A stretch of 64,000 nucleotides of DNA from assembly GCF_006345805.1 (NCBI RefSeq), contig NC_042999.1, forward strand, positions 14,322,001-14,386,000, given 5' to 3'. Shown in pieces: positions 11,590 through 47,296 of the stretch. Positions within the stretch are counted from its first letter, which is position 1; each line of letters starts with the position of its first letter. The notes beneath the pieces are model-generated. The model worked only from the letters and a program-made list of their open reading frames with translations, had not been told where the DNA came from and made no database searches. The DNA comes from Octopus sinensis (lineage: Eukaryota). A program made the translations under genes and the position numbers.

Positions 11590-12640
11590 GTTAACAAAAA
11601 CGATAGCAGCAACAACATGAACACCAAAAACAATAATAATAAACGCAGTAGCAACGAGAGCAGCACCATAACCAATTGCAAGGACAATACACGAACAAGA
11701 AGAAAGACAACAGCAATAAGAAGAAGAATAACAAGAGCAACAGCTGCAGTGAGACACAAGTGACTGAAAGAAAAACTACAGCAACACAACAGCAGCAGAC
11801 AATTATAGCAAGTGCAGCTGTAGGAACAACTGCAGCAGCAACAGCAGATGAGCAACAGCAGCAGCAAGGGGAAAAGCGTAGCAACAGTAAGGTGTATAAC
11901 GACAGCAACATTAGTAAGAGCAACATTAAGTGAAGCAGTAGACAACAGCAGGAACGGATGCAGCACTAACAACAGCAGCAACAAAAGATACAGCAACAGT
12001 AGACGCTACAGTAACAACAGCAGCAGTAGCAGCTGCCGCAGCAAGAACACATCAGTAGCAGAAACAGTAACCACAACAGCAACAACAACAGTTGCAGTAG
12101 CAGAGGCAGCAAAAGGAACAGCAGCAACGCAACAACATCAACAGCAGCAAGAACGGCAACAGCAGCAGAAGCAGCAGCAACAACAGCAGCAACAGCAGCA
12201 ACAACGCAACACAACAGCAGCAACAACGGCAACAACATAGAAGCAGCAGCAGAGGCAGCAACAGGAACAGCAGCAACATCAACAGCAGCAGCAGTAACAG
12301 CAGCAGCAGCAGCAGAGATGGCAGCAACAACAAATACAACAAACGGAAGCGGTGGCAACAGCAACAGTGGCAGAAGCAGCAGCAGCAGAAGCAGCAGCAA
12401 CAGCAGCAACAGCTACAACAACAGCAACAATAACAAGAGAAGCAGCAGCAACAACCGTAGCATCACAAAAATAATAAAAGAAAGAAAACATCATCTAGAA
12501 CAACAACTGTAATAACAACGACAACGACAACAACAACAGCAATAACATCAGCAACTTCAGCAGCAACCTCACTATCACCACCACCACCACCACCACCACC
12601 ACCACCACCACCACCACCAACAACAACAACAGCAGCCAAT
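11590..12640. repeat. Degenerate (CAG/CAA/CAC)n low-complexity tract
   Basis: About 1 kb of trinucleotide-derived sequence with no conserved frame. Confidence 0.85.
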
Positions 12641-15816: not shown

Positions 15817-16442
15817 GAGTGAGAAAGCCGGTACAGACACCGCAAGAAATTTCGATAATTGCTCTATCAGTTTTGTCTGTCGACAACTATAGACAAGCAT
15901 CTTTTTGATTATTTTTTTATCAACCCCCGACATCAGGGCCAGATTCAAATCCATAGAAACCCTAAGCATTTAAAAGATTTTGGCGCTTCCATATATATGT
16001 AAATCAAAATATAAACAATAATAAACCATAAAATAAATTTTCATTATTCAACATAGAACAAAACTGACAATGAGATGGAAAAAATGTTTATTTTTGTATT
16101 TTTCTACTTTATTTATATCTGAAAAGTTTTATCCTACTCTTAATGGCGAAAACTTTGATCAGATCCTCATTATGACACTAGGAACACTTCAAAATTATTT
16201 TTCCGATCATATAAACCACTTAGATTATCATTTTAGCAAGTTTCAAATGATTTTCTTTAGTGCTGTAAACCATTTACCATTTCTGTGGTGCCACATTTTC
16301 CTTGATACCCTAAAGCACGAGCTTATTTTGCGTAATGGTTAATCCAGTGCTGTCCGATATGATGAAATGCAATAATGATCTCTCACAGGGATTTGAACTC
16401 AGCTTAGAGAACCATAACATATACCGAGTGTTATTCTACCCT

Positions 16443-17222
16443 GTTTCTTTACTACCCACAAGGGGCTAAACACCTAGGAGACAAACAAGGACAGACAGAC
16501 GGATTAACTCGATTACATCGACCCCAGTGCATAACTGGTACTTATTTAATCGACCCCGAAAGGATGAAAGGCAAAGTCGACCTCGGCGGAATTTGAACTC
16601 AGAACACAAAGACAGACGAAATACCTATTTCTTTACTACCCAAAAGGGGCTAAACACAGAGAGGACAAACAAGGACAGACAAGCGGATTAAGTCGATTAG
16701 ATCGATACCAGTGCGTAACTGGTACTTATTTAATCGACCTCGGAAGGATGAAAGGCAAAGTCGACCTCGGCAGAATTTGAACTCAGAACATAAAGACAGA
16801 CGAAATACCTATTTCTTTATTACCCACAAGGGGCTAAACACAGAGAGGACAAACAAGGACAGACAAGCGGATTAAATCGATTAGATCGATACCAGTGCGT
16901 AACTGGTACTTATTTAATCGACCCCGAAAGGATGAAAGGCAAAGTCGACCTCGGCAGAATTTGAACTCAGGACATAAAGACAGACGAAATACCTATTTCT
17001 TTACTACCCACAAGGGGGTAAACACAGAGGGGACAAACAAGGACAGACATAGGTATTAAGTCGATTACATCGACCCCAGTGCGTAACTGGTACTTATTTA
17101 ATCGACCCCGAAAGGTTGAAAGGCAAAGTCGACCTCGGCGGAATTTGAACTCAGAACGTAGCGGCAGACGAAATACCGCAAAGCATTTCGCCCGGCGTGC
17201 TAACGTTTCTGCCATCTCGCCG
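16443..17222 (-). mobile_element. SINE family B tandem tetramer (one head plus 184-bp units)
   Basis: Junction GACAGACGAAATACCTATTTC at 16611, 16795 and 16979. Confidence 0.9.
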
Positions 17223-21236: not shown

Positions 21237-21702
21237 TAGTACTCAGATGCACTATAATTCAACGGAAAAGGTAAAACAGGGGACAAAATGCAACAGTTAG
21301 CAATGAAAGCCAAATGTATATGTACTGTTCGTGCCCACAGAGAAAAGCGTAAAAGACAGAAACGTGGGCAGTGAAAGAACCATAAAAAGTAAAAAATGCA
21401 TGAAACATTAGGAGTTGTTTTGGTGAATTTGGGGAAGCAATGAACATTTGCAGGATGCAGTGTTTTCAAAACTGAGAGCTGATGCCCGTCGTTTATTCCA
21501 TGCTTTACAAATGTTTCCGGAAATCATGGGTGGCGCACTTTTTGAAAAAAATTTATTTTATAAGCATTAGGCGCAGACATAGCTGTTTGGTAAGAAGCTT
21601 GCTTCCCAACCACATGGTACCTGCTTGTTGTTCCTACACCTGTCTTCGTCTTTTGTTTTCTGTAAATTTGAACTACACACACATACACACACACAAACAT
21701 AT

Positions 21703-22274
21703 TTGTTAAAGAGGATAACAAACGTTAAGGCAAAGCAAATATCTCAAGTCATATACATTATTATCATTGGGGAAAAAAATTGAAAGTCTTACAGCTGTTT
21801 CTGGGATATCCCAAAGTATGCGATATTCCGTCATCGGAGACAAATAGGGGAAAAGAGAAGGGTATAGATTAATGAAAAGACGACATAGAGGACAAGAGTA
21901 AATGAATAAGGAGATGAAGAGAAAATAAGCATAAAAGTTCACAGTTCAACTTTCCGATCGTGTAGAATGCTTATAAGTAAGTCCGTAAGTCCTTAGGTGC
22001 AATCCTGCGTAAATCCATGTACGTTAAAGTCCTGAAACAGCTGTAAGACTTTGAATTTGTTTTTTTCTAATAACATATATGACTTGAGATGTTTGCCTTA
22101 CCTTCACGTTTGTTGTCCTCTTTAACAATTATATATCCGCTGTATCGGAAATCTGCAATGGTTCCATAACTACCGTCTCAGCTATAACCTTGGAGCCCTA
22201 GTAATCTGTTGCAGCACTTACCTAGCGTACCTAGTCGTTTAGATCACCTGTGAACTAAACCCCAATATTTTGTG
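21703..22274. mobile_element. Fold-back Penelope-like relic, paralog of 4843-5212; hammerhead at 21786-21841 (-) with CCGATGA core
   Basis: Inverted arms and shared downstream CTACCGTCTCAGCTATAAC segment. Confidence 0.65.
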
Positions 22275-22376
22275 TATATGTATATATATATAACAATTGC
22301 AGCGTGGAAGGTGTTTATAAGCCATTTAAGAAACACACAAAAACCGTTAGATTCACTTCAACATTTAAGTTTAATA

Positions 22377-22423
22377 TGTCAAAATATTTTCGTCGCTTTA
22401 AGACCGCGACCTGTTCACTGACA
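22377..22423 (-). ncRNA. Hammerhead-like motif, G3-C8 variant core
   Basis: tgtca-GTGAACA-g-gtcgc..gcgac-GAAAATATT-T-tgaca on the minus strand. Confidence 0.6.
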
Positions 22424-22445
22424 AAAATCCGTGCTGCATCTCTTT

Positions 22446-22491
22446 TGTCAGTGAACAGGTCGCGGATTTTTGCGACGAAAATATTTTGACA
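22446..22491 (+). ncRNA. Hammerhead-like motif, G3-C8 variant core
   Basis: tgtca-GTGAACA-g-gtcgc(ggattttt)gcgac-GAAAATATT-T-tgaca. Confidence 0.6.
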
Positions 22492-22630
22492 ATTTAAACT
22501 TAAATGTTGAAGTGAATCGAACGGCTTTTGTGTGTTTCTTAAATGGCTTATAAACACCTTCCACGCTGCAATTGTTTTCGTTTCAGCACACGATCTCAGA
22601 TCAAATCACTTGCTATGCGAGTACATCTCC

Positions 22631-23212: not shown

Positions 23213-23629
23213 GGTGGTAAGCTGGCGGAAACGTTAGCACGCCGGCCGAAATGCTTAGCGGTATTTCGTCTGCCGTTACGTTCTGAGTTAAAATTCCGCC
23301 GAGGTCGACTTTGCCTTTCATCCTTTCGGGGTCGATAAATTAAGCACCAGTTACGCACTGGGATCGATGTAATCGACTTAATCCGTTTGTCTGTCCTTGT
23401 TTGTCTCCTCTGTGTTTAGCCCCTTGTGGATAGTAAAGAAATAGGTATTTCGTCTGCCGCTACGTTCTGAGTTCAAATTCCGCCGAGGTCGACTTTGCCT
23501 TTCATCCTTTCGGGGTCGATAAATTGAGTACCAGTTATGCACTGGGGTCGATACAATCGACTTAATCTGTTTGTCTGTCCTTGTTTGTCTCCTCTGTGTT
23601 TAGCCCCTTGTGGGTAGTAAAGAAATAGG
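23213..23629 (+). mobile_element. SINE family B dimer
   Basis: Head plus two units joined at AAAGAAATAGGTATTTCG. Confidence 0.85.
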
Positions 23630-24131
23630 TTGGACAGACGGATGGACGGACGGACGGATGGACGGATAGATGGATGGTTGGCCGGACAGACAGACAGACC
23701 AATGGATGGATGGAGAGCGGGAAAGAGAAATGAATGTAAAAGTACTCAATTGTAACATGTACGTCGTCTTAGCAGCATGTTAGACCCCCGGGTAGTAGGC
23801 TGCAGCACACATAGATCAAAATTTGTCCCCTAGTTTCATGAAAACCCCGGATAATTGGCCAAGTGTGTCCATGCATTAAGAGGACACTATTTATATGTAT
23901 CGAGGTAAATCTGCTCTGGATTTTTCATTGTTCCTGTGACAGGGTCATTAAACTGTTGCGATCAAGGTTTGGAGAAAGTATTACCAGAGAGAGACAGAGG
24001 GAGAGAGAGAGGCTAGCGTCCTATCCAGGAAGTAGAAAGTTATTTCTTTTTCACTTAATATTATGAAGATAAGGCGAAATACCAACTTATGATCTCCAAA
24101 TCTATGTGCATCAAAATAATGAAAATATTAC

Positions 24132-46221: not shown

Positions 46222-47296
46222 TTAATCTTTTAGCATTCATTTTATTCTGTCAAATTTAAAGCCTATTTATTCACATTGTTTTGAATCAATCAATCTCATA
46301 ACTTCGAAATTTCACTGAACTGATTATTTATTTTTAAGATGATACTGTAGGGTGGGTGTGAAAGGCTGGATCAGGCCAGTTTTAACATAAAACAAGAAGA
46401 CCCTTGTGTTAATTCTTTACCATATAAGTTGTCATGTTTCTGTTGAAATCGGCTGCCTTTGCTTCAGTTAGTTTTGAAAATAATGAAGAATTTAAGAAAA
46501 TGGCCAAATCACGTTGAAAGCACCGGTTCTCGTCTGATCACCGAGGTTAAGCAACGTCGAACCTAGTCAGTACTTAGATGGGTGACCGCTTGGGAAACCT
46601 AGGTGCTGTAAGCATAGCACATTTCAGCGGTGGTGCCCCAGCATGGCCGCGGCCTTCGGGCTAAAACATTTTTAAGGATTTAAGGATTGTAAAAAAGGTT
46701 TTTGGAACATAAATTAACAATGCAAAGTTTTTATTTCGATAATAATTGCAAACAGGAAGTTTGTATCATAGATACAATCTCTGATGGGTTGATATCAATA
46801 GGGTTAATGGTTACATTTAATCTTTTTGTTACCATGTTTCTGTTGAAATACACTGAATTTGTTTTAATTAACTATGAAAATAAGCAAGTATTTGGTAAAA
46901 TATATTTTTAATCATTAAACTAGTGTTTGGAACTTTGCTGTTATTAACCCTTTCGTTATCAACCTGGCTGAAACCAGCTCTGAGTATGAATGTCTTGTTT
47001 TCATAAGTTTTGAATTAAAATCTTCCACCAAACCTTAGTCACATTTTATGTGCCTAACACTGGCTTAATGATAACTAAGTTATTTTACTAAATTCCTGGT
47101 TATATTTAAAACTAACTGAAAGAAACACAGAGCATCTCGAAATAAATAGAGTAATGAAAGGGTTAAGTTAGTGCTTGGAACATAAACTAATGTGAAATTT
47201 TGGTGTAAGGTCTTTAATTTAATTTAGATCATTTTAAAACAAGATTGTATCACAGAGCCAGGAGCAGTTTCAGATGGTTTAGTATCAAGACGGTTA
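46222..47296. mobile_element. Cluster/nest of piggyBac-like MITEs
   Basis: TTAA-CCCTTT...AAAGGG-TTAA at 46944-47166 nested in a related copy (46817-47296); other relatives at 46410-46806, 52727-53225, 54542-54772 and 56421-56645. Confidence 0.65.
46501..46614 (+). rRNA. 5S rRNA-like sequence, 5'-truncated; likely pseudogene or SINE head
   Basis: GGCCAAATCACGTTGAAAGCACCGGTTCTCGTCTGATCACCGAGGTTAAGCAACGT..GTACTTAGATGGGTGACCGCTTGGGAA matches metazoan 5S; single copy, no oligo-T terminator directly after. Confidence 0.85.

What the first reader, a model, noticed from the sequence alone, without database searches (positions are those of the whole stretch)
22377..22491. Hammerhead architecture with a compensatory G3-C8 core (GUGAACA instead of CUGANGA)
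Seen: both arms have a perfect 5-bp stem I (tgtca/tgaca), a 5-bp stem II (gtcgc/gcgac) with different loops, GAAA and palindromic AATATT, but the 5' core reads G-U-G-A-A-C-A. Established: positions 3 and 8 form a Watson-Crick pair in the active hammerhead fold, and swapped pairs can rescue activity. Inference: a natural swapped-pair variant that standard CUGANGA searches would miss, with a predicted UUU cleavage triplet.
Basis: partly seen in the sequence, partly recalled or inferred. Interest (0 to 1): 0.8.

Follow-up and report, generated by a model that had tools for sequence, protein, structure and literature searches.

The report
Octopus retroelement hammerhead with swapped core
Thousands of copies of an octopus Penelope-like retroelement carry a hammerhead-shaped RNA whose core pair reads G3-C8 where sister elements have the standard C3-G8, and it is likely a slowed but still working self-cutter, since most copies were written from likely capped RNA that had not been cut.

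Summary
Observation confirmed. 22292-22630 is an inverted pair of 5'-truncated ends (pseudo-LTRs) of a Penelope-like element (PLE) in an octopus. The motif lies in sense about 1 kb behind an RT plus GIY-YIG frame, where PLE hammerheads belong. G3-C8 is the family state: 5,965 of 6,613 core 17-mers. Sister PLE families keep the same layout with canonical C3-G8, and the stems covary, so this is a natural pair swap. I found no natural G3-C8 in print; natural U3-A8 and a partly active engineered C3G/G8C are published. Lünse 2017 could not be read. This scan noted unverified G3-C8 candidates in two other genomes. Cleavage is not shown. 31 of 42 copies ending 18 nt upstream carry an extra G, likely a copied cap, with the motif intact, so templates were mostly uncut. 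Copy starts at the predicted UUU site are enriched in one test (13 of 28, p about 0.004) but weakly or not in two controls. The two arms are not independent evidence.

The parts
22292..22630 (.). Whole insertion: two 5'-truncated pseudo-LTR copies of one Penelope-like family, joined at their 5' ends, in a TA-rich site
   Evidence: longer copies carry an RT plus GIY-YIG frame upstream
22292..22442 (-). Left arm: short 3' end (no tail), older subfamily type (loop II GGTCTTAAA)
   Evidence: L001: 5 of 9 diagnostic sites differ from the right arm
22441..22442 (-). Likely transcription start (A at 22441, 18 nt before stem I) with an extra G at 22442 where the element has C; likely a copied cap
   Evidence: 31 of 42 copies ending here have G; commonest 5' end; loose ends at this place in three organisms
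22377..22423 (-). Hammerhead motif, type I, G3 (22418) and C8 (22413); predicted cut between 22382 and 22381
22443..22630 (+). Right arm: long 3' end with tail, younger subfamily type (loop II GGATTTTT)
22446..22491 (+). Hammerhead motif, type I: stem I, GUGAACA core (G3 22451, C8 22456), extra G, stem II, GAAA, palindromic AAUAUU, predicted cut after UUU between 22486 and 22487
22575..22630 (+). About 55-nt tail present on one arm only; matches the two reverse-transcription start sites described for PLEs
   Evidence: 109 of 124 inverted pairs have the tail on exactly one arm; PMC11167929
22631..22652 (.). (TA)n target flank; a shorter TA run lies at 22281-22291

Best explanation
This is the 3' pseudo-LTR of an octopus Penelope-like retroelement, holding a minimal type I hammerhead motif whose 3-8 core pair is G3-C8 where sister families have C3-G8, and it is likely a slowed, dimer- or protein-assisted self-cutter that would cut after UUU in only a small share of RNAs. 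Shown: element identity, sense position behind the RT-GIY-YIG frame, G3-C8 as family state, covariation with sister families, two 3' ends, and a sharp 5' end with an extra G. Inferred: RNA is capped and starts 18 nt before stem I; the RT starts internally about 145 or 200 nt downstream and copies back to the 5' end, writing the short copies with the motif intact; slow cutting leaves most RNA usable as template; U17 avoids a G3-C17 mispair that the C17 of some sister families would allow.
For: Motif in sense behind the frame in all 7 fetched loci of L061-L069 where one search lists ORF pieces; GIY-YIG hit E 1.4e-5. 5,965 G3-C8 against 378 and 270 single-site departures. All 4 C3-G8 hits inspected belong to other PLE families with the same layout; a C3-core pattern finds 3,107 sister copies. 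In 21 hand-picked rows the 3-8 pair is CG 13, GC 6, UG 1, unpaired 1, with double changes also in stems I and II. The G3 family is one clade, 100/100. Of 16 subfamily-diagnostic sites, 1 falls in the 38 structural positions and it keeps the pair as U-G (my count; about 3.4 expected, suggestive only). An engineered C3G/G8C double mutant of a lizard PLE hammerhead regains part of its activity, needs the PLE protein, and unprocessed RNA is the main substrate (PMC11167929). TA-flanked copies: 13 of 28 begin at the predicted site class (p 0.001-0.004).
Against: No cleavage assay. 8,568 copies span the site intact against an estimated 59-70 starting there. All-junction controls give 33-38 and about 70, so the excess is 1 to 2-fold. 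The same TA test on the sister family was mixed: 4 of 15 at its site, 4 two bases upstream. The hammerhead-shaped dimer (-22.0 kcal/mol) is less stable than another dimer (-33.7). The young sister family has replaced the conserved A9 by C, which suggests loose constraint on these cores. The extra nucleotide is G where the published consensus is H. No G3-G8 or C3-C8 intermediate clade was found.
Confidence: 0.6

Rival explanations
1. The motif is a catalytically dead descendant. The swap arose by two unselected changes on a long branch, and the hairpins persist by descent or as a binding or promoter element.
For: Templates mostly uncut; sister family lost A9 yet amplified; hammerhead mutants do not hinder insertion in vitro (PMC11167929); cleavage-site excess is weak in controls.
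Against: A second change at position 8 restoring the exact pair is unlikely by chance among the changes on one branch; core and stems unchanged through several subfamilies while loop II changed; TA-flanked starts cluster at the site.
Confidence: 0.3
2. The G3-C8 motif is an efficient ribozyme that routinely trims the transcript, and genomic copies come only from the minority of RNAs that escape.
For: Copies sample only RNAs that were reverse-transcribed, so they may under-report cutting; perfect 6-nt palindrome and 5-bp stems.
Against: Cut 3' fragments still hold both RT start sites and should leave copies starting at the site, which are about 1%; minimal PLE hammerheads are slow in vitro (PMC4209133); the engineered swap is only a partial rescue.
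Confidence: 0.08
3. The likeness to a hammerhead is chance within a fold-back or MITE-like repeat.
For: No Rfam hammerhead hit at any E-value up to 10.
Against: Linked to an RT-GIY-YIG frame; canonical sister motifs align column for column; Rfam misses those too; 0 hits in 20 shuffles.
Confidence: 0.02

Closest known systems
Minimal type I hammerheads of metazoan Penelope-like elements (Cervera and de la Pena 2014, PMC4209133)
   Same: Type I, in the pLTR in sense, extra nucleotide between 9 and 10.1, G10.1-C11.1, short palindromic helix III, UH site, many solo and opposite-strand copies.
   Different: G3-C8 core; none of the rows of their Fig. S3 that I read has G3. Extra nucleotide is G, not H. 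Activity untested here.
Natural U3-A8 hammerheads (Schistosoma Cercyon PLEs, PMC4209133; PMC3088659)
   Same: Natural covariation of the 3-8 pair.
   Different: U3-A8 needs two transitions and keeps pyrimidine-purine order; G3-C8 needs two transversions and reverses it.
Engineered C3G/G8C mutant of the Anolis PAc hammerhead (PMC11167929)
   Same: Same swap in a PLE hammerhead; two RT start sites giving a tail; AT-rich targets; uncut RNA as main substrate.
   Different: Laboratory mutant in a Poseidon element; here the swap is natural and fixed in a family of more than 8,000 copies.
Neptune/Nematis-type EN+ PLEs (PMC8557442)
   Same: C-terminal GIY-YIG, CX2-5CxxC linker (CQSNCAVC), inverted 5'-truncated copy, tail on one end, microsatellite targets.
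   Different: Clade placement not tested; tail about 55 nt against 30-40 nt described.

Membership tests
Hammerhead ribozyme, minimal type I | Stems I and II around a three-way junction, G10.1-C11.1 | tested here: met
   (helix II 96%, helix I 80% of cells paired; double changes in both)
Hammerhead ribozyme, minimal type I | Literal C3 and G8 of the CUGANGA box | tested here: not met
   G3 and C8 in 5,965 of 6,613 core 17-mers
Hammerhead ribozyme, minimal type I | Watson-Crick 3-8 pair with U4 G5 A6 and A9 kept | tested here: met
   G-C here, C-G in sister families
Hammerhead ribozyme, minimal type I | GAAA box, palindromic helix III, NUH site | tested here: met
   GAAA, AAUAUU, UUU
Hammerhead ribozyme, minimal type I | Site-specific self-cleavage | not testable with these tools
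   Indirect genomic test inconclusive
Rfam hammerhead families | Covariance-model match | tested here: not met
   a canonical sister motif also fails
Penelope-like element, EN+ | One frame with RT and C-terminal GIY-YIG | tested here: met
   793-aa frame with YVDD and YIGET; GIY-YIG E 1.4e-5 on the C-terminal 112 aa; RVT_1 only below cut-off in homologues; whole frame had no Pfam hit
Penelope-like element, EN+ | pLTR with inverted truncated copies and a tail on one end | tested here: met
   (109 of 124 pairs)
Neptune clade | CX2-5CxxC linker between RT and EN; microsatellite targets | tested here: met
   CQSNCAVC; (TA)n flanks; feature list from PMC8557442; Nematis also has a linker
Neptune clade | Phylogenetic placement with named Neptune elements | not tested
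   no named reference sequences in hand
Non-LTR retrozyme | Head-to-tail tandem monomers, no linked ORF | tested here: not met
   copies are solo or inverted and continue into an ORF-bearing body

The most novel reading that the evidence does not exclude
First natural, fixed G3-C8 hammerhead: a self-cleaving ribozyme with its core pair inverted, carried by more than 8,000 retroelement copies in several octopus-related species, tuned down so that capped uncut RNA serves as template; young PLE families in this genome dampen their ribozymes by separate routes (G3-C8 in one, A9C in another).
Probability: 0.45. Interest if true: 0.72.

Novelty: new variant of a known kind. Interest (0 to 1): 0.55.

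Why it matters
The 3-8 pair is the signature of the active hammerhead fold. A natural G-C inversion beside C-G sister families with the same stems is evolutionary support for that pair, and shows that CUGANGA-based searches miss whole families of thousands of copies. The genome offers a matched set (G3-C8, canonical, A9C) to test what PLE hammerheads are for, which is an open question. The cap-like G and two-subfamily arms add direct clues to PLE reverse transcription.

Tried and rejected
Rfam at gathering and E-value level: no hammerhead, nor for a canonical sister. RVT_1 search of the genome listed other RTs and was not followed. PDB search empty. Intermediate hypothesis (C3G8 to G3G8 to G3C8): G8 makes 41 of the first 100 non-C8 hits and 6 and 10 of 100 in older subfamilies, but the 25 G3G8 copies scatter over the tree, several have a C8 partner arm, and C8>G is 4 of 223 in an unselected set; rejected. 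Expression: no RNA holder on record; laid runs are contigs and RNA status is a guess, so no evidence either way. One search was a mis-designed control and served only as a family count. One search timed out. Hammerhead states in other animals' homologues could not be read, as no DNA around those proteins was available. Papers not held: Lünse 2017, Martick and Scott 2006, Przybilski and Hammann 2007b. An earlier count gave the start site as 22428; the correct place is 22441.

Full report
Observation. The described sequence is present at the stated place. Each arm reads stem I, GUGAACA, one extra G, a 5-bp stem II, GAAA, AUAU, UU and the stem I partner. Each folds into stems I and II on its own. 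A strict descriptor finds these 2 sites in the window and none in 20 shuffles. The arms are on opposite strands of an inverted repeat, so they are two copies of one repeat.

What it belongs to. The genome is an octopus: P0001, annotated Octopus vulgaris, matches it at up to 99%. The core 17-mer occurs 5,965 times and a 24-mer across the predicted cut site 8,568 times. I fetched 14 stretches with paired copies. One search lists ORF pieces in 7 of them, with the motif in sense about 1 kb downstream. The best frame is 793 aa with YVDD, a CQSNCAVC linker and YIGET. Pfam gave no hit on the whole frame, GIY-YIG on its last 112 aa (E 1.4e-5), and weak RVT_1 in homologues. Copies have two 3' ends about 55 nt apart and sit mostly in (TA)n; 109 of 124 inverted pairs have the tail on one arm. 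These are the PLE traits described in PMC8557442 (passages) and PMC11167929 (passages and part 2 of the main text).

Is G3-C8 the family state? With the other 15 letters fixed, G3-C8 has 5,965 hits, G3 with another base at 8 has 378, and non-G3 has 270. In 308 copies not picked on the core, G3 is 205 of 212 and C8 205 of 223. Contigs from four coded organisms carry the repeat with no listed change at 3 or 8; that table is depth-weighted and can miss rare variants.

Covariation. I inspected the 14 hits of the first 100 that had G8 or C3-A8; 12 belong to other, older PLE-end families, including all 4 C3-G8 hits. A sister family with a 55% identical protein has CUGAUGA in older and CUGAUGC in younger copies. 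A C3-core pattern finds 3,107 such copies; by my count 23 of the first 100 have A9 and 77 have C9. On 21 hand-picked rows the 3-8 pair is CG 13, GC 6, UG 1, unpaired 1; stem II shows G-C to A-U and stem I U-A to C-G; slid controls fall from 89% to 24-52% paired. These rows are related, so each change is about one event. A tree of 106 of 184 copies, built without positions 3-9, puts all G3-family copies in one clade (100/100) on a long branch, with G3-G8 copies scattered inside it. The swap is therefore one event with no surviving intermediate found. Direction (C3-G8 ancestral) rests on the universal consensus, not on a rooted tree.

Constraint. From I count 16 subfamily-diagnostic sites; 4 are in loop II and 1 is in the 38 structural positions, an A to G that keeps stem I as U-G. 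About 3.4 would be expected there. This is suggestive only. Against strong constraint, the young sister family lost A9.

What RNA is copied. The commonest 5' end is the A 18 nt before stem I (loose ends there in three organisms). Of 68 copies with that stretch, 26 run on upstream and 42 end there; 31 of the 42 have G as the next base where the element has C (p 4e-11 against 25%). An extra G is the known mark of a copied cap (my knowledge). So the element is likely transcribed in the hammerhead sense from this A, and RT copies back from an internal start across an uncut motif. The window's left arm is such a copy. This agrees with PMC11167929, where unprocessed RNA is the main substrate. One search found no paper with untemplated or non-templated G for PLEs.

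Does it cut? A cut RNA should leave copies starting at U1.1. One search found 124 copies with a non-T at position 17. Of 71 rows examined, the script flagged 45 as truncated; I dropped 6 by eye (one decayed intact copy, one ambiguous, two internal duplications, two duplicates), leaving 39 of 69, or 33 without a 7-nt microhomology class: 59-70 copies. Control 1, 20 nt downstream (178 hits): 13-15 of 70, or 33-38 copies. Control 2, two bases downstream (484 hits): 10 of 69 after dropping a subfamily insertion and duplicates, about 70 copies. Intervals overlap. Among TA-flanked junctions, 13 of 28 loci fall in the two classes expected from a start at U1.1 (p 0.001-0.004), but the site lies in a T run, and the sister-family control was mixed. 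A wider window gave 9 of 39 listed loci. At most about 1% of copies start at the site. The hammerhead-type dimer is not the lowest-energy dimer. I read this as weak support for rare cutting.

Literature. PMC4209133 (parts 1-2 of 4 of the text; supplement 2, parts 1-2 of 3; supplement 1 not searchable) defines these minimal motifs, reports natural U3-A8 and low activity, and shows no G3 row. PMC3088659 (passages) reports natural U3-A8. PMC3884650 (passages) notes that engineered G3-C8 works better with G17 than C17; my inference that U17 avoids a G3-C17 mispair rests on this. PMC6765202 and PMC6155905 (passages) and bioRxiv 2026.07.22.740005 (part 1 of 5) gave no G3-C8 case in what I saw. Searches listed no natural G3-C8 hammerhead. 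Lünse 2017, the largest survey of these variants, was not held and could contain one. Figures are not searchable. Two earlier notes of this scan describe G3-C8 candidates behind Penelope-like RTs in other genomes; I did not check them.

Verdict. A new natural variant of a known ribozyme kind in a known element class. Homology and the swap are well supported (about 0.95). Residual activity is inferred (about 0.65). Interest 0.55.

Noticed in passing
window 22292-22630; L010, L028, L313: The two arms of one inverted insertion can come from different subfamilies (window: 5 of 9 diagnostic sites differ; 12 of 98 pairs differ at 3 or more, not fully deduplicated). This suggests two RNA templates per insertion, or later gene conversion.
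   Followed up: partly
window 22441-22442 (-) and copies: Extra G at the 5' end of 31 of 42 copies, likely a copied cap; the start lies in TCAGAT, which resembles an initiator motif (recalled).
   Followed up: partly
L105:4630-4675 and L205-L234: A young sister PLE family has an A9-to-C core (CUGAUGC) while its older copies keep A9; a second derived core in the same genome.
   Followed up: partly
window 22575-22587: The tail begins with TTTTCGTTTCAG, which looks like a 3' splice site; PLE 5' introns are known. Not tested.
   Followed up: no
window 16440-17177 and 23260-23630: 184-nt tandem repeats (4 and 2 units) with a B-box-like stretch; common near other loci; no hammerhead descriptor or Rfam hit.
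   Followed up: no
window 46496-46614: 5S rRNA match, 93 bits, with unpaired ends; likely a pseudogene or 5S-derived repeat.
   Followed up: no
window 21699-22132: 65-nt inverted arms 304 nt apart, 88% complementary; MITE-like.
   Followed up: no
window 11970-12455: Long imperfect CAG/CAA array, possibly a polyglutamine exon.
   Followed up: no
L052, minus strand: A 239-aa open frame resembling a Tc1/mariner transposase near a family copy (likeness recalled).
   Followed up: no
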